DNA of 64,000 bases from Calditrichia bacterium (lineage in GTDB: Bacteria > Calditrichota > Calditrichia > RBG-13-44-9 > J075), in NCBI GenBank assembly GCA_028284905.1, contig JANQQU010000026.1:57252-121251 (forward strand). The letters run 5' to 3'. Shown in pieces: positions 56,333 to 62,902 of this stretch; the first letter of the stretch is position 1; each line of letters opens with the position of its first letter. A program made the position numbers and the translations under genes. The notes under the pieces are model-generated. The model had not been told where the DNA came from. It searched no databases and saw only the letters and a program-made list of their open reading frames with translations.

Positions 56333-58444
56333 ATGCGTTGGATCCAGATACTATTTCTGGCAGTTATTTGCTGCTGGACAGCTTTGTTTGCCCAGGAAGA
56401 TTATTGGGAGGAAACCGGCGGCCCCCATGGTGGTACGATTCATTCCCTGAAAGTAAATAGTATGGGATATCTGCTCGCCGGCACTGCCAACGGATTTTAT
56501 ATTAGCGAAGACAATGGCGAGAATTGGGAAGAACGGAATGTCGGTTTATTACAAAATCAGGATGTAATGGCGGTCGGGTTGAATGCCGCGGAGGAGATTT
56601 TTGCCGGCACGAAGGGGAATGGTGTGCTGCGTTCGTCGGATAATGGGCATACCTGGGAGCAAATTAATAATGGTCTCTTGAGTACAGAAGTCTTTTCCAT
56701 GGGGATTGATGGCGCAGACAGAATCTTCCTTGGCACCGCGGAAGGGATGTATTATTCTCCCGATAATGGCGCGAACTGGATGGCCTTAACCAACGGTATC
56801 TCCAATGCGACGATCTACAAAATTGCCATCAATGCCAGCAATCATGTCTTTGCTGCGACTCAGGAAGGCGTTTATCGCTCGCTCGATCATGGCGTTAGTT
56901 GGAGCAAGGTGAACAATGGCCTCACCCATCTCTTTGTTGTTGCCCTTACAGTCAATATTGACGGGGCGGTTTATGCCGGCACAATAGAAGGCGGACTGTT
57001 TCGTTCAACCAATAATGGCGATAGCTGGGAAAACTATAGCAATGGGTTGACGAATATGAATGTCCGGACGCTGGGGCATGATGCCAGTGGCGTGCTGTTT
57101 GCCGCAACAGAGGGCGGGCTCTTTCGCTATGATGTCACTGAGAGTGATATCTGGGTACCAATCAACGAAGGTTTGATCTATCCTTTCGTTTATGCGATGG
57201 CCTTCTACGCCGCCTATGTTTATGTCGGCACACAATTGGGCGGCATGTTCCGCTCGGAGGATAATGGCAATTCCTGGGTGCGCAAGGTGCGCGGATTAAC
57301 AATTCTCGTGGTGCTGCAAATTATTACCAATCCGGAGGGGATTCTTTTTGCAGCAACGGATGGGGGACTCTTCCGCTCGAATGACGGTGGAATTATCTGG
57401 CTGCCGGTGCTTATTCAGGGCCTTGCTTTTCCCTGGATAACGGCAATAGCCATTAACGCGGTTGGGCACATATTTATCGGCACTTACCTGGCCGGTATTT
57501 TTCGTTCGCTGGATGGCGGCCTCACCTGGGCGTCAGTAAATATCGGCTTAACCAGTTTATTCATAACCGCGTTGGTTATTGGCATTGCCGGGGAATTATA
57601 CGCCGGCACAGCCAATGCCGGGGTGTTCCGTTCGAATGATGGCGGTCTCACCTGGATAGGATATAGCGTAGGATTGATCTTCCTGGGGATAACATCGCTC
57701 GCAATCAATGAAGTCGGCGATCTGTTTGCCGGTACCCGGAATGGCGGTGTATTCCGCTTCTTGCTCAACGGCAGTTCCTGGGCCGCCATTAATATTGGCA
57801 TCGCAGTTGTCTGGATAACAGCGATTCGTTACAGCATATTAGGCTTTCTCTACGTTGGCACCTGGGGAGGAGGCGTCTATCGTTCCGACGATAACGGGGA
57901 TACCTGGAACGGTTACAACGATGGCTTGCCGAGCCTTTTCGTGACGACACTGGGGGTGAATCAACTTGGCTACCTCTTTGTGGGGCTCTTTGCCTGGGGG
58001 ATTTATTTGTCGCTGGATAATGCCTTGACATACGAGGCGATAAACACCGGACTATCTATTCTCCTGGTCTATGCAATTTATTTTGCTTTGGATGGTTTCG
58101 TTTACGCCGGCAGCAGCCGGAGGGGCGTATTCCGCAGCCGGAAATTCACAGCAATCGAGCGCCTGGAAACGCTGGCCATTAAAGGGTTCGAATTAATGCA
58201 GAACTTCCCCAATCCATTCAACCCGGAAACGACCATCCGCTTTACCATCCCTGATCGCGCAAAAGTGAAACTGCAGATATTTAACACAGCCGGACAGATG
58301 ATCAAAACGCTGGTAAATGATGTGCTGGCAGGCGGTAGTTATCAATATCAATGGCAGGCAGCCGGTGTGCCGAGTGGCACTTATTTTTATCGTATGACCG
58401 CAGATGGTTACTCGGAAACTAAAAAGCTAGTGCTATTGCGATAA
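56333..58444 (+). CDS. BNR/Asp-box repeat beta-propeller protein with T9SS C-terminal sorting domain
   Basis: Signal peptide. At least 9 S-x-D-x-G-x-T-W repeats. C-terminal Por-secretion tail (…KVKLQIFNTAGQMIKTL…GTYFYRMTADGYSETKKLVLLR). Confidence 0.8.
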   Translation: MRWIQILFLAVICCWTALFAQEDYWEETGGPHGGTIHSLKVNSMGYLLAGTANGFYISEDNGENWEERNVGLLQNQDVMAVGLNAAEEIFAGTKGNGVLRSSDNGHTWEQINNGLLSTEVFSMGIDGADRIFLGTAEGMYYSPDNGANWMALTNGISNATIYKIAINASNHVFAATQEGVYRSLDHGVSWSKVNNGLTHLFVVALTVNIDGAVYAGTIEGGLFRSTNNGDSWENYSNGLTNMNVRTLGHDASGVLFAATEGGLFRYDVTESDIWVPINEGLIYPFVYAMAFYAAYVYVGTQLGGMFRSEDNGNSWVRKVRGLTILVVLQIITNPEGILFAATDGGLFRSNDGGIIWLPVLIQGLAFPWITAIAINAVGHIFIGTYLAGIFRSLDGGLTWASVNIGLTSLFITALVIGIAGELYAGTANAGVFRSNDGGLTWIGYSVGLIFLGITSLAINEVGDLFAGTRNGGVFRFLLNGSSWAAINIGIAVVWITAIRYSILGFLYVGTWGGGVYRSDDNGDTWNGYNDGLPSLFVTTLGVNQLGYLFVGLFAWGIYLSLDNALTYEAINTGLSILLVYAIYFALDGFVYAGSSRRGVFRSRKFTAIERLETLAIKGFELMQNFPNPFNPETTIRFTIPDRAKVKLQIFNTAGQMIKTLVNDVLAGGSYQYQWQAAGVPSGTYFYRMTADGYSETKKLVLLR

Positions 58445-58494
58445 AAACAATTAGCCCTAAAGGCTATAGTTATACATAAATTTACAAATAGAAA

Positions 58495-58676
58495 ATATGT
58501 CGCCCCTACAGGGCTAATGGTTCTTAACAGGTTTTATTAGCTATAAATATTCCGCCCCTACGGGGCTCAAAACATGCACAAAATAGTGGATTTACAAATC
58601 AAGTCCCATAGGGACGGAATATTTATAGCGCAAAGGTTTTAATTGTCGTTTGAGCCCTGTAGGGGCGACATATTTC
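58495..58676. promoter_or_regulatory. four copies of a 22 bp element in nested inverted arrangement (atatgtcgcccctacagggct family)
   Basis: Copies at 58495-58516 (→), 58548-58570 (→), 58603-58624 (←) and 58653-58674 (←), with 50-55 bp spacing. Upstream of the Rieske-ThDP gene. Confidence 0.45.
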
Positions 58677-59011
58677 AAGAAATTTATAACGAATATAAAG
58701 ACATGCAAGAGCGATAGCTCGAAGAGGTGTGCAATTCGCAGTAGCAGGAAATGCAAGCAGTAGTGTGCACACTGTTTACTGCGAATGGTTTGTCGAAGCG
58801 TTAAAACTCTCTCCTTAATCCAACACAATTCTTTCCCAATCAAAAATCAGCCAATACACTTTTGTGATAAAAATATGAGCTCCTCATGAGGGAGTTCTGT
58901 TTTGTTTTTCTCATAATTGATACTATGTTAAAAATGAGCACTTCATTTGAACAGCTAAACCATTCACTTTTCCCAGGGTAATCCTGAAAACATTTATTGG
59001 AGGAGCAACAG

Positions 59012-60964
59012 ATGAGCAAGAATGATGCTGCATTAAACTGGTTTCGTGTGCTGGATCTCGACGAATTGCCGGAAGGTCGCGTCAAAACAGTTACTGCCGG
59101 TCATAAAAGTCTGGCGATGACCCACTATAAAGGCAAGATCAGTGCGTTGGACAATAAATGTCCTCATCAGGGTGGTCCGTTGGGAGAAGGCTCCATTGAG
59201 AATGGCTGGCTACGCTGTCCCTGGCATGGTTGGGATTTTTGCCCGCACGATGGCAAACCTCCGGGAGGATACGATGACGGCGTACCAACCTATCCGGTAG
59301 AAATTCGCGACGATGGCGTTTACGTCGGTATGCCGGTTGAGAAGCCTCATGAACGCACCGTCACCGATGTGATGGCGGAAACCATGGTCAATTGGGGGGT
59401 AAAGCATGTTTTTGGCATGGTCGGTCATTCCAACCTGGGATTAGCCGATGCGCTGCGTCGCCAGGAAGCGGCCGGAAATTTGACCTATTATGGGATTCGC
59501 CATGAAGGCGCTGCCGCATTCGCTGCCTCCGCTTATGCAAAGCTGACCGGCAAACCGGCGGCATGTCTGGCAATTGCCGGTCCCGGTGCGACGAACCTCC
59601 TCACGGGACTTTGGGATGCGAAAGTCGACCGCGCCCCAATCCTCGCTCTAACCGGGCAAGTGGATACCCAGGTGCTCGGGCCTGGCGCTTTCCAGGAAGT
59701 GGATCTTGCCGCCGCCTTTTCAGCCGTTTCCGCATTTAGCCAAACAGTTCTGGACAGTAGCCGCCACGCCGAATTAATGAATCTCGCTCTTAAAAACGCC
59801 CTCTTAAAGAGAGATGTCGCTCATCTGATTTTCCCTGATGAAGTACAAACCCGTCCCGCCAGCGAACGGGCAAAGGCTGGTGGACCGCAGGGGCGCATGT
59901 CCCCACAAACCATCACACCCCCGGCGGATATGATGGATGCCGCGCTGGAAAAACTCAAAGCCAGTAAACGTCCGGTAATTATCGTTGGCCATGGCGCCCG
60001 TTTCCACATGGAGGCAATTATTGCATTTGCCGAAGCACATAATATACCCGTCATTACTACTTTTAAAGGAAAAGGGCAGATCTCCGATAAGCATCCCCTG
60101 GGATGTGGCGTGCTCGGCCGCAGCGGCACCCCGATCGCCAGCTGGTTTATGAACGAATCGGATTTGCTCCTAGTTTTTGGCGCTTCTTTCTCCAATCATA
60201 CCGGAATAACCCCGAAGAAGCCGATCATTCAAGTTGATTTCGATGCGATGGCATTGGGTAAATTCCATCGGGTGGATGTACCGCTCTGGGGAGAAATCAG
60301 CGTTGTCGTGGGAATGTTCCAGGAAAAATTAGCGGGTAAAATGAACAGCGAAGATCAGCGTGAGGAAATCGCCGCCCGTTGGAAAATCTGGCGCGAAGAA
60401 AAAGATCGCCGGGAACTGGATGACCGTGGGCAGGGCGTCAACTCCGCATCGATATTCGCGGCGATGAATCGCCAGATTCCCGCCAATGCGGTGATCGCCG
60501 TGGATGTTGGAAACAATACCTATTCTTTCGGGCGCTATTTCGAATGTCAGGAACAATCCGTGCTGATGTCCGGTTATCTCGGATCAATCGGGTTCGGTTA
60601 TCCTGCCGCGATGGGTGCCTGGGCGGCAGCGCCGGAGCGGCCGATCGTTTGCGTCACCGGTGATGGCGGCTTTGGCCAATATATGGGCGAACTGCTCACC
60701 GCCGTGAAATACAATATGAATATCACTCATATTCTTCTCAATAATAGTGAATTGGGGAAAATTAGTAAAGAACAGAAAGCCGGCGAATGGGATGTCTGGC
60801 AAACCTCTCTACACAATTGTAACTTCTCCCAATTTGCGGAAAATTGTGGTGCGATGGGTATCCGGGTAACTGATAAATCTCAACTGGACGAAGCAATCCA
60901 AAAAGCGCTCAAACATGATGGACCGGCAATGGTGGAAATTATCGCTGATTCACAGCTTATATAA
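59012..60964 (+). CDS. Rieske [2Fe-2S] domain fused to thiamine-diphosphate enzyme of the pyruvate oxidase/acetolactate synthase family
   Basis: GGAGGAG RBS before ATG 59012; the ORF-track start at 58997 is a TTG. N-terminal CPHQGGPL…CPWHGWDF Rieske motifs. Then ThDP Pyr domain (GIRHEGAAAFAASAYAKLTGKPAACLAIAGPGATNLLTGL), a middle domain, and PP domain (GDGGFGQYMGEL…NN). Confidence 0.8.
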   Translation: MSKNDAALNWFRVLDLDELPEGRVKTVTAGHKSLAMTHYKGKISALDNKCPHQGGPLGEGSIENGWLRCPWHGWDFCPHDGKPPGGYDDGVPTYPVEIRDDGVYVGMPVEKPHERTVTDVMAETMVNWGVKHVFGMVGHSNLGLADALRRQEAAGNLTYYGIRHEGAAAFAASAYAKLTGKPAACLAIAGPGATNLLTGLWDAKVDRAPILALTGQVDTQVLGPGAFQEVDLAAAFSAVSAFSQTVLDSSRHAELMNLALKNALLKRDVAHLIFPDEVQTRPASERAKAGGPQGRMSPQTITPPADMMDAALEKLKASKRPVIIVGHGARFHMEAIIAFAEAHNIPVITTFKGKGQISDKHPLGCGVLGRSGTPIASWFMNESDLLLVFGASFSNHTGITPKKPIIQVDFDAMALGKFHRVDVPLWGEISVVVGMFQEKLAGKMNSEDQREEIAARWKIWREEKDRRELDDRGQGVNSASIFAAMNRQIPANAVIAVDVGNNTYSFGRYFECQEQSVLMSGYLGSIGFGYPAAMGAWAAAPERPIVCVTGDGGFGQYMGELLTAVKYNMNITHILLNNSELGKISKEQKAGEWDVWQTSLHNCNFSQFAENCGAMGIRVTDKSQLDEAIQKALKHDGPAMVEIIADSQLI

Positions 60965-61295
60965 GCATTCACTAATAAGTTTTTTTACTACACGTATCTA
61001 AAACGAGATAATATCTTTTGGAAAGGGATTATTTAATATAATCCCTTTTCTTTTGCCATTTTCCTTGTTTTTTTAGTACCGGATACATTTAAAATAAGCC
61101 ATTGATCAACTCGGATTTACACTGATTTAGAAAGAGTTTCAATCTTTTTTAAGTAAAACCGTCTCTAAATCTGTGCTAATCAGTGGAAATCTGTGGCTAT
61201 TATAAGAATATCCCATATTGATTTTTTTGAATCTCTACCTGAATCATATTAAATTAATTACTATATTCCGGGATAATAAAAATACCGGACAACGA

Positions 61296-61673
61296 ATGGA
61301 TTTAAGCGATACATTTTTTGAAATTGATTGGCATGATTTGCCGGTCGATTTTTTATGGTTCGATTTCGATGCGAATCGGATTAGCCTTCAGTGCAGCGAG
61401 TTTGATGATGAAGCCGATGAATACAAGGCGTTGATCCTGACTTTTCAATCGATTTTAACGGTCACTGTAAAAAGCTTAAGCTTCGAAAATATTTCCGGTA
61501 TTGGCGATTTCTATGATGCCGAACTGACCAATCTGGACTACGAACATCTTGAATCCGGCAACCATCATGTTACGCTGTCGATTTCAATGGGCGTGACGGA
61601 AGCACCATCGCACATCGAAATCACCAGCAAAGAGCTTCATCTCATCCGTCGCAAAGAGGTGCCGGAAGCTTAA
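61296..61673 (+). CDS. hypothetical acidic protein
   Basis: ORF only; no recognizable motif; start uncertain. Confidence 0.3.
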   Translation: MDLSDTFFEIDWHDLPVDFLWFDFDANRISLQCSEFDDEADEYKALILTFQSILTVTVKSLSFENISGIGDFYDAELTNLDYEHLESGNHHVTLSISMGVTEAPSHIEITSKELHLIRRKEVPEA

Positions 61674-61711
61674 ACCCGATTTTCGGGCAACGAAATTTAT
61701 GAGGTCTACTC

Positions 61712-62902
61712 ATGAAGAAGTTCATCTTTTTTGGGATATTATCTTTTCTGATAATAATTAGCAGTAACGTATGCGCACAATCAGGAGAGAAACCGCTACG
61801 AATTTTCGGATATTTCCAAAATGAATTTTCTCATTTTGCCGGGAATGCGGTTCATAATGATACCAGAAATACCTTCAACCTTCAGCAGATGAACGTATTC
61901 TTCCAAAAGAATATTTCCCTTAAATGGAGTGCTTTTGTCAACTTTGAAATGGTCAATAATTTTTCTTCCAGCAAACAATGGGGCTCTGCCAAGTTGGAAG
62001 AGGCCTGGGTAAAATATGATTTTGGCAAAGCTGCGACTCTCCGGGCCGGATTGCAAATTCCCACTTTTAACAACCTGAACGCCATCAAAAATCGTACGCC
62101 ACTCTTACCCTATGTGGTACGGCCTATCGTTTACGAAGCTTCTTTTGAAGAAGTCGTTACCCTGGAAGAGTTCGTTCCGGGACGCGCTTTCTTGCAGTTA
62201 TATGGTTTCATGCCAATCGGGAAGTATAAGAAGTTTGACTATGCTGTTTATCTTGGGAATAGTCCGAACATAAACAATTTTAGCACCCGGGGGCAAACCG
62301 GCGTTGATACGACGAATACTTTTCTGGTTGGCGGACGCGTCGGCCTGCGTGTTGGGGATCTCAAAATGGGCGTATCCGGCACAATGGATAAAACGAACCT
62401 GTTCACTAGGATAACGAATTTTTTTAATGTACCGTCACTGGAACCATTCGAAAAAAGAGACCGCTTTCGCGTCGGTGCGGATCTTTCTTTTCAGAATGAT
62501 ATGTTTATGTTTGAAGCGGAATACATCGATGTCAGCTATGAAGAGTATAGCAGTGACGGGCTGAATGCCAATGTTATTGATCGTCTGGAAGGATTCGAGT
62601 TGGACCTGGCATTTTACTACGCTACCCTGGGTTTTTATGTTAAAGAACCACTCTTGGTGTATGGCACTTACTGGCGTTCACGTACGATAGAGCCTTATTT
62701 TTTAGATTTGCAACGCGGATTTGTTGACGAAAGAGAAAGACTAAATGTACCCGGATTTGGATTTAGCTATCAATTGAGCGACCGGGTTCGTCTGAAAGCA
62801 CAGTATGCCCGTGTGAATGTAAATGTGGATATCGGGGGCAATATGATCAAGGTAGATAATACCAGCAATTTCTATTCAGCTGCTGCTTCGGTCTTTTTTT
62901 AA
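61712..62902 (+). CDS. outer-membrane porin (phosphate-selective porin O/P-like)
   Basis: Signal peptide, beta-barrel composition, and terminal …SVFF. Adjacent PstS-like gene and a paralog downstream. Confidence 0.5.
   Translation: MKKFIFFGILSFLIIISSNVCAQSGEKPLRIFGYFQNEFSHFAGNAVHNDTRNTFNLQQMNVFFQKNISLKWSAFVNFEMVNNFSSSKQWGSAKLEEAWVKYDFGKAATLRAGLQIPTFNNLNAIKNRTPLLPYVVRPIVYEASFEEVVTLEEFVPGRAFLQLYGFMPIGKYKKFDYAVYLGNSPNINNFSTRGQTGVDTTNTFLVGGRVGLRVGDLKMGVSGTMDKTNLFTRITNFFNVPSLEPFEKRDRFRVGADLSFQNDMFMFEAEYIDVSYEEYSSDGLNANVIDRLEGFELDLAFYYATLGFYVKEPLLVYGTYWRSRTIEPYFLDLQRGFVDERERLNVPGFGFSYQLSDRVRLKAQYARVNVNVDIGGNMIKVDNTSNFYSAAASVFF

What the first reader, a model, noticed from the sequence alone, without database searches (positions are those of the whole stretch)
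58997..60964. Rieske [2Fe-2S] domain fused to a pyruvate-oxidase-family ThDP enzyme
**Domains.** The N-terminal 105 residues carry both Rieske boxes (CPHQGGPL and CPWHGWDF, i.e. C-x-H…C-x-x-H). The rest has the three-domain layout of POX/ALS-family ThDP enzymes (Pyr, middle, and PP domains with the GDG…NN ThDP motif).

**Why it matters.** Known family members pass electrons from the hydroxyethyl-ThDP intermediate to FAD and then to quinone or O2. A covalently attached Rieske centre suggests a different acceptor route. It would make this a ThDP-dependent 2-oxoacid:Rieske oxidoreductase, or a redox-regulated enzyme. I do not recognise this architecture as a characterised enzyme.

**Start site.** The ORF track's first codon at 58997 is a TTG. 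ATG 59012 with a GGAGGAG RBS is the likelier start.
Basis: partly seen in the sequence, partly recalled or inferred. Interest (0 to 1): 0.65.

Follow-up and report, generated by a model that had tools for sequence, protein, structure and literature searches.

The report
Pyruvate-oxidase-like enzyme with built-in Rieske ferredoxin
This gene encodes a thiamine-dependent, pyruvate-oxidase-like enzyme with an iron-sulfur (Rieske) electron-carrier domain fused to its front end; the fusion is real, highly conserved in hundreds of bacterial species, and no study of it was found, so it probably marks an unstudied way of taking electrons out of 2-oxoacid oxidation.

Summary
Window 59012-60964 (+) is one intact 650-aa ORF with a Rieske [2Fe-2S] domain (aa 9-105), a short linker, and the Pyr/middle/PP domains of a POX/ALS-type ThDP enzyme. 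It is not an artefact. At least 594 species-representative genomes from about 15 phyla, including complete isolate genomes, encode the same full-length fusion. The 80 loci kept are 66-78% identical to it, and the four cluster ligands are present in 83 of 85 copies. Three comparative results support an electron-transfer role for the Rieske domain. First, the nearest relatives of the ThDP core carry an N-terminal rubredoxin instead, and one family member adds Fer4_19 and two CDGSH domains. Second, all carrier-fused forms lack the C-terminal membrane tail that E. coli PoxB uses. Third, the gene often sits beside other carrier-fused redox proteins: a Rieske- or CDGSH-fused glutamate-synthase FMN domain, an MsrQ-like haem-b protein with a Rieske domain, and an FMN_red-like protein. 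Most likely it is a soluble 2-oxoacid oxidoreductase whose electrons leave through the Rieske centre. Substrate, FAD content, partner and direction of electron flow remain unproven. No paper on this architecture was found. In the window the gene stands alone among unrelated genes.

The parts
58999..59005 (+). Shine-Dalgarno-like GGAGGAG, six bases upstream of the ATG start
   Evidence: Read directly from the sequence.
59012..60964 (+). Complete gene for the 650-aa Rieske-ThDP fusion protein. ATG 59012 is the likely start; the mechanical ORF begins at TTG 58997.
   Evidence: ORF list. The identical 650-aa database protein P0001 and about 650-aa homologues support the ATG start.
59036..59326 (+). 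Rieske [2Fe-2S] ferredoxin-type domain (aa 9-105). The ligands are Cys50 and His52 (CPHQGGPL) and Cys69 and His72 (CPWHGWDF).
   Evidence: Pfam PF00355 and PF13806. The nearest solved proteins are soluble Rieske ferredoxins 2qpz, 1vm9 and 1fqt. The ligands are present in 83 of 85 family members.
59327..59356 (+). Short linker (aa 106-115) between the Rieske domain and the ThDP core
   Evidence: It lies between the Pfam domains. It is the least conserved segment, with mean column identity 0.51, yet it is modelled with pLDDT about 88-92.
59357..59710 (+). Pyr (TPP_enzyme_N) domain (aa 116-233), with the cofactor-activating Glu165 (IRHEGAAAF) and the GxFQE loop
   Evidence: Pfam PF02776. It aligns to PoxB E50 and F112-Q113-E114. 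Glu165 is present in 84 of 85 members.
59936..60307 (+). Middle (TPP_enzyme_M) domain (aa 309-432). This is the FAD- or ADP-binding domain in relatives; its cofactor here is unresolved.
   Evidence: Pfam PF00205. The search with the middle domain alone was inconclusive.
60503..60940 (+). PP (TPP_enzyme_C) domain (aa 498-643), with GDGGF-x24-NN and family-invariant Lys583 at the position of PoxB Phe465. The protein ends about 8 residues after PoxB residue 524, so it has no membrane tail.
   Evidence: Pfam PF02775. Alignment with PoxB. Lys583 is present in 85 of 85 members and all 85 have the same C-terminus.
58877..58897 (+). Terminator-like hairpin with a T-run between the upstream gene and this gene. 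It suggests the gene is transcribed on its own here.
   Evidence: Consensus scan only, which is weak evidence.

Best explanation
The gene encodes a soluble, cytoplasmic 2-oxoacid oxidoreductase (decarboxylating) built on the pyruvate-oxidase fold. ThDP attacks a 2-oxoacid and CO2 is released. The two electrons of the hydroxyalkyl-ThDP enamine are then removed one at a time and leave the enzyme through the covalently attached low-potential Rieske [2Fe-2S] ferredoxin domain. A flavin in the middle domain probably acts as the two-electron to one-electron converter. The Rieske domain takes over the role that the C-terminal membrane-binding tail plays in E. coli PoxB (delivery to quinone) or that O2 plays in lactobacillar POX. 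It hands electrons to a separate protein partner. In other genomes the candidate partners are encoded next door: a Rieske- or CDGSH-fused glutamate-synthase-type FMN/[3Fe-4S] protein, an MsrQ-like haem-b membrane protein with its own Rieske domain, or an FMN_red-type flavoprotein. What is shown: the architecture, the intact cofactor motifs, the family's distribution and conservation, the interchangeable carriers, the loss of the tail, and the neighbour statistics. What is inferred: the catalytic activity, the substrate (pyruvate or 2-oxoglutarate are the most plausible), the presence of FAD, the direction of electron flow and the partner.
For: The domains and motifs are intact. The best whole-protein profile is pyruvate oxidase PRK08611 at 418 bits, against 307 bits for AHAS. 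The best solved-sequence match and the best fold match are both E. coli PoxB, and the fold match is to its C-terminally truncated, activated form 3eya (TM 0.85-0.87 on the target). The Rieske domain is of the soluble ferredoxin type. It is as conserved as the middle domain (0.74 against 0.73 mean column identity), and its ligands are present in 83 of 85 members. In the exhaustive representative search, the nearest ThDP cores (36-48% identity) carry an N-terminal rubredoxin (P0247, P0253, P0259, P0263), and P0243 carries Fer4_19, two CDGSH domains and a Rieske domain ahead of the core. All carrier-fused forms end about 8 aa after PoxB residue 524, whereas the unfused relatives P0308 and P0309 keep tails of 48-52 aa. 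The literature states that the PoxB tail (helix 558-568) mediates lipid activation and that Phe465 gates ThDP-to-FAD transfer (PMC7245740). Among 84 loci, G (Rieske + Glu_synthase FMN) recurs in about 29, X290 in about 28, M357 (Ferric_reduct + Rieske) with Y255 in 9, and the FMN_red-like F252 in 9; gene order varies across phyla. G itself also occurs with CDGSH domains in place of the Rieske domain.
Against: There is no biochemical data. FAD binding is not established. The middle domain alone ranks CsmA/BbmA and ADP-binding 2-hydroxyacyl-CoA lyase/oxalyl-CoA-decarboxylase-type enzymes above POX. The protein scores far below every NCBIfam equivalog cut-off (418 against 742 bits). Phe465 of PoxB is replaced by Lys, although this position also varies in tail-bearing relatives. 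The geometry between the Rieske cluster and the active site could not be measured, because only confidence values of the AlphaFold model are returned. No neighbour is universal; a third of the loci, the window included, have none of them. The direction of electron flow cannot be read from sequence.
Confidence: 0.58

Rival explanations
1. The chemistry is the same oxidative decarboxylation, but without a flavin. The middle domain binds ADP or nothing, and the Rieske cluster oxidises the hydroxyalkyl-ThDP enamine directly in one-electron steps through a ThDP radical. That would make it a PFOR-like mechanism on a POX fold.
For: The middle domain alone is no closer to FAD-binding POX than to ADP-binding HACS/OXC-type enzymes. 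The aromatic residue that relays electrons from ThDP to FAD in PoxB (Phe465; PMC7245740) is an invariant Lys here.
Against: The whole-protein profile and the fold are closest to FAD-containing POX. The FQE loop seen in PoxB is kept. The Phe465 position is Met in a tail-bearing POX-like relative, so it is not diagnostic. To my knowledge, no POX/ALS-fold enzyme is known to pass electrons from ThDP directly to an Fe-S cluster.
Confidence: 0.12
2. The Rieske domain is an electron entry point or a redox/O2 sensor and not the exit. It would keep a flavin reduced, or switch a non-oxidative ThDP reaction (carboligation or decarboxylation, as in AHAS or glyoxylate carboligase, where FAD has no net redox role) on and off according to the cell's redox state.
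For: AHAS-type enzymes are nearly as similar to the query as POX. FMN_red-type NAD(P)H-linked flavoproteins sit beside the gene in 9 loci and could act as reductants.
Against: Swapping in rubredoxin, CDGSH and Fer4_19 at the same position is what one expects of a generic electron wire, not of a tuned sensor. The loss of the PoxB-type exit device (the C-terminal tail) coincides exactly with the gain of a carrier. The frequent neighbours are themselves redox enzymes that need or give electrons.
Confidence: 0.15
3. The protein is dedicated to its frequent neighbour G, the Rieske-fused glutamate-synthase FMN/[3Fe-4S] protein. In one version it supplies G with electrons from 2-oxoacid oxidation for reductive amination of 2-oxoglutarate. 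In the other, the two enzymes act in series (glutamate to 2-oxoglutarate to succinate) and both deliver electrons to a common acceptor.
For: G lies within about 1 kb, on the same strand in all but one case, in about a third of loci across many phyla, and the gene order varies. G keeps the GltS [3Fe-4S] cysteine motif and aligns to the substrate/FMN region of GltS. Both proteins carry N-terminal Rieske domains, and both families are unusually conserved.
Against: Two thirds of T loci lack G within 10 kb, and the window has no G in 64 kb. T-bearing Acaryochloris, Leptothoe, Adonisia and Stenomitos do not appear among G's top named hits. Only 3 of about 15 full-length G loci have T adjacent. The link is therefore facultative.
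Confidence: 0.12
4. The fusion is an assembly or frameshift artefact that joins two separate genes.
For: None was found.
Against: The window ORF is uninterrupted. At least 594 species-representative genomes encode a relative, and the 80 loci kept show the same full-length fusion, complete isolate genomes among them. The linker is modelled with pLDDT about 88-92.
Confidence: 0.01

Closest known systems
E. coli pyruvate:ubiquinone oxidoreductase PoxB (PDB 3ey9/3eya), with its relatives C. glutamicum PQO and S. aureus CidC
   Same: It has the same Pyr/middle/PP three-domain ThDP fold. It is the best solved-sequence match (E 1e-74, about 28% identity) and the best fold match. The catalytic Glu, the FQE loop and the GDG...NN motif are conserved.
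   Different: PoxB has no Fe-S domain. It delivers electrons to membrane quinone using a lipid-activated C-terminal tail (helix 558-568) and Phe465 (PMC7245740). The window protein lacks the tail, has Lys at that position, and carries an N-terminal Rieske domain. It scores well below the PoxB and POX equivalog cut-offs.
Lactobacillus plantarum pyruvate oxidase (PDB 1pox), which forms H2O2 and acetyl-phosphate
   Same: It has the same fold and is a strong sequence and fold match. The best NCBIfam profile is a pyruvate-oxidase model.
   Different: LpPOX passes electrons from FAD to O2 and has no Fe-S domain. In the window protein, FAD binding is unproven and the acceptor is presumably the fused Rieske centre.
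Pyruvate/2-oxoacid:ferredoxin oxidoreductases (PFOR/OFOR)
   Same: They are the functional analogue: ThDP-dependent oxidative decarboxylation whose electrons leave one at a time through Fe-S clusters.
   Different: Their fold and family are unrelated, and no POR-type Pfam domain was found here. They use [4Fe-4S] clusters, need CoA and are mostly oxygen-sensitive. The window protein has a POX/ALS fold with a Rieske [2Fe-2S] cluster and occurs in lineages that are mostly aerobic.
Soluble Rieske-type ferredoxins of oxygenase systems (NDO ferredoxin 2qpz, T4moC 1vm9, BphF 1fqt)
   Same: These are the nearest solved relatives of the N-terminal domain. They have the same CxH...CxxH ligands and likewise lack the extra disulfide cysteines of bc1/b6f-type Rieske proteins (read from the sequence).
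   Different: They are free-standing shuttles of about 105-112 aa between a reductase and an oxygenase. Here the domain is fused to a ThDP enzyme, and no oxygenase is encoded nearby.
Rubredoxin-fused POX-like ThDP proteins of Dehalococcoidia, Methanomicrobiales and ANME-2 (uncharacterised; P0247, P0253, P0259, P0263, P0270)
   Same: They hold the closest ThDP cores outside the family (36-48% identity). They share the N-terminal position of a small one-electron carrier and the missing C-terminal tail.
   Different: The carrier is a rubredoxin, the hosts are anaerobes, and the sequences are far more divergent. These proteins are also uncharacterised.
Type 5 CDGSH proteins (2x CDGSH + glutamate-synthase FMN domain; Lin et al. 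2011, PMC3174974)
   Same: They follow the same design principle: a small [2Fe-2S] carrier fused to the N-terminus of a flavoenzyme core. The core is the same one as in the frequent neighbour G.
   Different: This is a different enzyme family that was catalogued without a function. It is relevant as a parallel and as a neighbour, not as a homologue of the ThDP protein.

Membership tests
POX/ALS-type (decarboxylase-class) ThDP-dependent enzymes | Three-domain layout of Pyr (TPP_enzyme_N), middle (TPP_enzyme_M) and PP (TPP_enzyme_C) | tested here: met
   All three Pfam domains exceed their gathering scores. The fold match to PoxB, AHAS and LpPOX reaches TM 0.73-0.87 on the target.
POX/ALS-type (decarboxylase-class) ThDP-dependent enzymes | Cofactor-activating glutamate in the Pyr domain and the GDG-x(24-27)-NN Mg-ThDP motif in the PP domain | tested here: met
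   Glu165 aligns to PoxB Glu50, and GDGGF...NN is present. Glu165 is present in 84 of 85 family members.
Pyruvate oxidase / pyruvate:quinone oxidoreductase (PoxB, PQO, CidC, LpPOX) | Reaches the curated equivalog score of a pyruvate oxidase or dehydrogenase model | tested here: not met
   The best model is PRK08611 at 418 bits against a cut-off of 742. PoxB PRK09124 scores 324 against 792.
Pyruvate oxidase / pyruvate:quinone oxidoreductase (PoxB, PQO, CidC, LpPOX) | C-terminal lipid- or membrane-binding tail (PoxB residues about 530-572, activation helix 558-568) | tested here: not met
   The protein ends 8 residues after PoxB residue 524, and so do all 85 family members. The role of the tail is taken from PMC7245740.
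Pyruvate oxidase / pyruvate:quinone oxidoreductase (PoxB, PQO, CidC, LpPOX) | Aromatic relay residue between ThDP and FAD (PoxB Phe465) | tested here: not met
   The aligned residue is Lys583, invariant in 85 of 85 members. This position is Met in a tail-bearing POX-like relative, so it is weakly diagnostic.
Pyruvate oxidase / pyruvate:quinone oxidoreductase (PoxB, PQO, CidC, LpPOX) | FAD bound in the middle domain | tested here: inconclusive
   The whole-protein profile and the fold favour POX, and the FQE loop is kept. The middle domain alone, however, ranks ADP-binding HACS/OXC-type enzymes and CsmA/BbmA above POX. No ligand modelling was available.
Pyruvate oxidase / pyruvate:quinone oxidoreductase (PoxB, PQO, CidC, LpPOX) | Oxidative decarboxylation of pyruvate | not testable with these tools
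   This needs an enzyme assay.
Rieske-type [2Fe-2S] ferredoxins (low-potential, soluble class) | The CxH ... CxxH ligand boxes within a Rieske fold | tested here: met
   Pfam PF00355 (E 1e-17) and PF13806. Cys50, His52, Cys69 and His72 are present in 83 of 85 members. The domain is modelled as a beta-rich fold with pLDDT about 85-94.
Rieske-type [2Fe-2S] ferredoxins (low-potential, soluble class) | Closest to oxygenase-system ferredoxins and lacking the disulfide cysteines of high-potential bc1/b6f Rieske proteins | tested here: met
   The top solved matches are 2qpz, 5bok, 1vm9 and 1fqt, while b6f and arsenite-oxidase Rieske proteins appear only at E about 1e-3. The boxes read CPHQGG and CPWHGW, without a second cysteine.
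Rieske-type [2Fe-2S] ferredoxins (low-potential, soluble class) | Actually binds a [2Fe-2S] cluster, with a measured potential | not testable with these tools
   This needs UV-vis or EPR spectroscopy and redox titration.
2-oxoacid:ferredoxin oxidoreductases (PFOR/OFOR) | POR-type domains with [4Fe-4S] clusters | tested here: not met
   The Pfam scan found no POR/PFOR domain. The resemblance is functional only.

The most novel reading that the evidence does not exclude
This family is a widespread, oxygen-compatible functional counterpart of PFOR built on the pyruvate-oxidase fold. It would be a self-contained 2-oxoacid:Rieske-ferredoxin oxidoreductase that feeds low-potential single electrons into a modular set of carrier-fused partner enzymes. 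With the Rieske- or CDGSH-fused glutamate-synthase-like protein G, it would form an NAD(P)H-independent couple: either 2-oxoacid-driven glutamate synthesis or a glutamate-to-succinate shunt. With the MsrQ-like haem-b/Rieske protein, it would form a route across the membrane. In the most extreme version there is no flavin, and the Rieske cluster oxidises the ThDP enamine directly.
Probability: 0.3. Interest if true: 0.85.

Novelty: new variant of a known kind. Interest (0 to 1): 0.66.

Why it matters
The known POX-fold oxidoreductases named here pass their electrons to O2 or to membrane quinone. A version with its own Rieske ferredoxin domain would be a third exit route, and it would be a POX-fold analogue of PFOR. 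The family is large: relatives occur in at least 594 species representatives across about 15 phyla, many of them marine and sponge-associated lineages plus soil Actinobacteria. It is extremely conserved, with 163 of 650 columns at least 98% identical, so it probably does something important that current annotation hides under generic names. The rubredoxin-fused sister clade in anaerobes, together with the Rieske- or CDGSH-fused glutamate-synthase-like neighbour, suggests a wider, undescribed habit of wiring central-metabolism flavoenzymes directly to small Fe-S carriers. The protein is soluble and self-contained, so expression, spectroscopy and a 2-oxoacid screen could test all of this directly.

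Tried and rejected
- **Artefact or two-gene hypothesis.** Rejected by homologue architecture and genome breadth.
- **Operon partners in the window.** tblastn with G, X290, M357, F252 and Y255 found none of them in the 64 kb. The local neighbours are an M13 peptidase, an SSF symporter, a T9SS-secreted BNR beta-propeller and a porin.
- **Riboswitch or other RNA element in the 570-nt upstream gap.** No Rfam match.
- **FAD-site test.** The PoxB structure paper and a C. glutamicum PQO structure paper were not held, so I had no list of contact residues. The search with the middle domain alone was inconclusive. A search for the cofactor content of CsmA/BbmA found nothing.
- **Distance from the Rieske cluster to the active site.** The tool returns only confidence values and secondary structure, not coordinates, so this could not be measured.
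- **PoxB Phe465 to Lys as evidence against electron transfer.** Rejected as diagnostic, because a tail-bearing POX-like relative has Met at this position.
- **Obligate T-G complex.** Rejected.
- **Assembly and organism of the window.** The exact-protein look-up found nothing. The nearest relatives are a Calditrichia MAG and an unnamed MAG.
- **Literature.** Seven searches on the Rieske, rubredoxin or CDGSH architectures returned no paper on a Rieske- or rubredoxin-fused POX/ALS-type enzyme.
Full report
**1. The observation.** Window 58997..60964 (+) is a single uninterrupted ORF. The translation contains the two Rieske boxes exactly as reported (NKCPHQGGPL...RCPWHGWDF) and the ThDP motif GDGGFGQYMGELLTAVKYNMNITHILLNN. 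Pfam places Rieske PF00355 at aa 9-83 (E 1e-17), Rieske_2 at 9-105, TPP_enzyme_N at 116-233, TPP_enzyme_M at 309-432 and TPP_enzyme_C at 498-643, all above their gathering scores. GGAGGAG lies at 58999-59005, six bases before ATG 59012.

**2. The fusion is not an artefact.** The best 120 homologue clusters are 73-100% identical, about 650 aa long, and all carry Rieske plus the three TPP domains. The 80 loci kept are 66-78% identical over residues about 1-650. They come from Calditrichota, Acidobacteriota, Cyanobacteria, Poribacteria, KSB1, Gemmatimonadota, Nitrospirales, Myxococcota, Bacteroidota, Rhodothermales, Ignavibacteria, Deinococcota, Actinobacteria (Solirubrobacterales), Planctomycetota, Krumholzibacteriota, and Gamma- and Alphaproteobacteria. 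Complete isolate genomes are among them (Acaryochloris marina MBIC11017, Leptolyngbya sp. PCC 7376).

In an alignment of 85 copies, 163 of 650 columns are at least 98% identical. The Rieske domain is as conserved as the middle domain (mean column identity 0.74 against 0.73). The four ligands Cys50, His52, Cys69 and His72 are present in 83 of 85 copies, and the two exceptions are truncated ORF calls. Glu165 is present in 84 of 85 and Lys583 in 85 of 85, and all 85 copies end at the same residue. The nearest neighbour lies in another phylum for 26 of 81 sequences, so horizontal transfer contributes to the spread.

**3. What the parts resemble.**
- **ThDP core.** It is closest to pyruvate oxidases. 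The best NCBIfam model is PRK08611 (418 bits), ahead of PoxB-type models (324-334 bits) and AHAS (307 bits), but far below every equivalog cut-off. The best solved sequence is E. coli PoxB (E 1e-74, query 115-645 against chain 3-527).
- **Predicted structure.** The AlphaFold model has pLDDT 82 and pTM 0.82. The Rieske domain and linker score about 88-94, and confidence is low only in the active-site loops 217-230 and 581-601. The model best matches the C-terminally truncated, activated PoxB structure 3eya (TM 0.85-0.87 on the target). Every match covers only about 540-570 columns, so no solved structure contains this fusion.
- **Rieske domain.** It is nearest to the soluble low-potential Rieske ferredoxins of oxygenase systems (2qpz, 5bok, 1vm9, 1fqt). 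Cytochrome b6f and arsenite-oxidase Rieske proteins match only marginally. The boxes lack the extra cysteines of high-potential Rieske proteins, as read from the sequence.

**4. Key comparative result: interchangeable carriers.** An exhaustive search of 1.84 billion 50%-identity representatives shows that the full-length Rieske fusion collapses into a few clusters (P0241, P0242 and P0243 at 59-61% identity). The next-nearest ThDP cores (36-48% identity) start aligning at about query residue 100-115. Pfam shows that these relatives (P0247, P0253, P0259, P0263) carry an N-terminal rubredoxin, and that P0255 carries nothing. P0243 (873 aa) has Fer4_19, two CDGSH domains and a Rieske domain ahead of the ThDP core. 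The rubredoxin forms come from Dehalococcoidia, Methanomicrobiales and ANME-2, and are named only 'pyruvate oxidase' or 'TPP-dependent enzyme'. The same position in one enzyme clade is therefore filled by different small one-electron carriers. That is the behaviour expected of an electron wire, not of a structural or sensor domain.

**5. Tail loss.** I aligned these proteins with PoxB residues 1-527. The catalytic Glu, the FQE loop and the GDGG...NN motif are kept throughout. Every carrier-fused protein, whether Rieske or rubredoxin, ends 6-16 residues after PoxB residue 524, whereas the unfused relatives P0308 and P0309 keep tails of 48-52 residues. According to PMC7245740, the PoxB C-terminal region contains the lipid-activation helix (558-568). 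Movement of that region positions Phe465 to speed ThDP-to-FAD electron transfer, and it directs electrons to membrane carriers. In the window family this device is absent and the Phe465 position is an invariant Lys. That position is Met in a tail-bearing relative, so it is a family signature and not an argument about electron transfer.

**6. Genomic context.** In the window the gene stands alone. Upstream lie an M13 peptidase, an SSF symporter and a BNR/Sortilin beta-propeller with a T9SS tail. Downstream lie an unknown ORF and a porin. A terminator-like hairpin sits in the upstream gap, and no RNA family matches there.

I clustered neighbours without supervision across 84 non-duplicate loci (+/-8-10 kb). 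The recurrent neighbours are listed below.

| Neighbour | What it is | Loci |
|---|---|---|
| G | About 540 aa; Rieske + Glu_synthase (PF01645) FMN domain | about 29 |
| X290 | About 290 aa, no family assignment; usually abuts or overlaps the gene by 4 nt | about 28 |
| M357 + Y255 | MsrQ-like Ferric_reduct haem-b membrane domain + Rieske, always followed by the unknown Y255 | 9 |
| F252 | FMN_red-like | 9 |
| None of these | Includes the window | 33 |

None of these genes occurs anywhere in the 64-kb window. Further points on the link between G and the gene under study (T):
- G aligns to the FMN domain of glutamate synthase, including the [3Fe-4S] motif C-x5-C-x4-C.
- Seen from G's side, only 3 of about 15 full-length G loci have T adjacent. 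A second form of G carries two CDGSH domains instead of the Rieske domain. That form is the 'type 5 CISD' catalogued without a function by Lin et al. 2011 (PMC3174974).
- G's family is also 73-85% identical across phyla. T-bearing Acaryochloris, Leptothoe, Adonisia and Stenomitos are missing from its top named hits. In Leptothoe and Acaryochloris, T is instead followed directly by F252.

T is therefore an autonomous module that is facultatively co-located with several other redox proteins.

**7. Mechanism (inference).** The most economical reading is a soluble 2-oxoacid oxidoreductase. ThDP-dependent decarboxylation produces the enamine. Two electrons are then removed, probably through a flavin in the middle domain, and passed one at a time to the fused Rieske ferredoxin domain. 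That domain donates them to whichever partner the host provides. I give this 0.58. The rivals are:
- a flavin-free, PFOR-like direct ThDP-to-cluster route (0.12)
- the Rieske domain as an electron input or redox switch of a non-oxidative reaction (0.15)
- a dedicated couple with G (0.12)
- an artefact (0.01)

**9. Novelty.** Public databases name the protein only generically: 'Rieske 2Fe-2S domain-containing protein', 'thiamine pyrophosphate-binding protein', 'pyruvate oxidase'. Seven full-text searches found no paper on a Rieske- or rubredoxin-fused POX/ALS-type enzyme. A broad review of Fe-S flavoenzymes mentions neither pyruvate oxidase nor thiamine (PMC8097209). I classify the protein as a new variant of a known kind: a POX-fold ThDP enzyme with a built-in Fe-S electron carrier. 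It belongs to a large, highly conserved and uncharacterised family.

**10. Verdict.** Interest is 0.66. The family would surprise ThDP and flavoenzyme specialists and is directly testable, but its function rests on comparative inference.

Noticed in passing
P0243 (873-aa metagenomic protein; not in the window): One family member stacks Fer4_19, two zf-CDGSH domains and a Rieske domain ahead of the TPP N/M/C core. That gives up to four Fe-S sites in series before the ThDP enzyme.
   Followed up: partly
P0247, P0253, P0259, P0263, P0270 (not in the window): This is a sister clade of POX-like ThDP enzymes with an N-terminal rubredoxin and no C-terminal tail. It occurs in anaerobes (Dehalococcoidia, Methanomicrobiales, ANME-2) and appears uncharacterised.
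   Followed up: partly
L011:8208-9842; L104:4079-5620; also L001:6271-7884 and L003:6290-7903: A glutamate-synthase FMN/[3Fe-4S] domain protein of about 540 aa occurs with either an N-terminal Rieske domain or two CDGSH domains. It is 73-85% identical across phyla. JGI names some copies 'methylamine-glutamate N-methyltransferase subunit C'. Its function is unknown.
   Followed up: partly
[not shown]
   Followed up: partly
L080:6571-7644 (-) with L080:5794-6558 (-); L003:250-2090; L017:14383-16290: An MsrQ-like Ferric_reduct haem-b membrane domain fused to a C-terminal Rieske ferredoxin domain is always followed by an unknown protein of about 255 aa. The pair occurs near the ThDP gene in 9 loci. 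By eye the membrane protein has six transmembrane segments, which would place its Rieske domain in the cytoplasm.
   Followed up: partly
L009:12197-12955; L028:11998-12756; Solirubrobacterales loci such as L057:11994-12743: An FMN_red-like flavoprotein of about 250 aa lies directly downstream of the ThDP gene in 9 loci. A shorter, canonical FMN_red (153 aa) sits beside G in 4 loci.
   Followed up: no
P0266, P0271, P0283 (about 1080-1190 aa; not in the window): These proteins consist of two complete POX/ALS-type ThDP enzymes in tandem on one polypeptide.
   Followed up: no
window 59000-60500 against 58000-59000 and 60500-62000: The gene has about 0.55 G+C while its flanks have 0.37-0.46. This is consistent with horizontal acquisition or with strong amino-acid constraint.
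   Followed up: no
window 56333-58444 (+): The upstream gene encodes a 703-aa BNR/Sortilin-type beta-propeller with a type IX secretion C-terminal sorting domain. That points to an FCB-group (Calditrichota-like) host.
   Followed up: no
L022:10001-11956 and L041:750-2720: Two family copies have ORFs truncated at the N-terminus, although tblastn matches extend further upstream. These may be frameshifts, pseudogenes or assembly errors.
   Followed up: no
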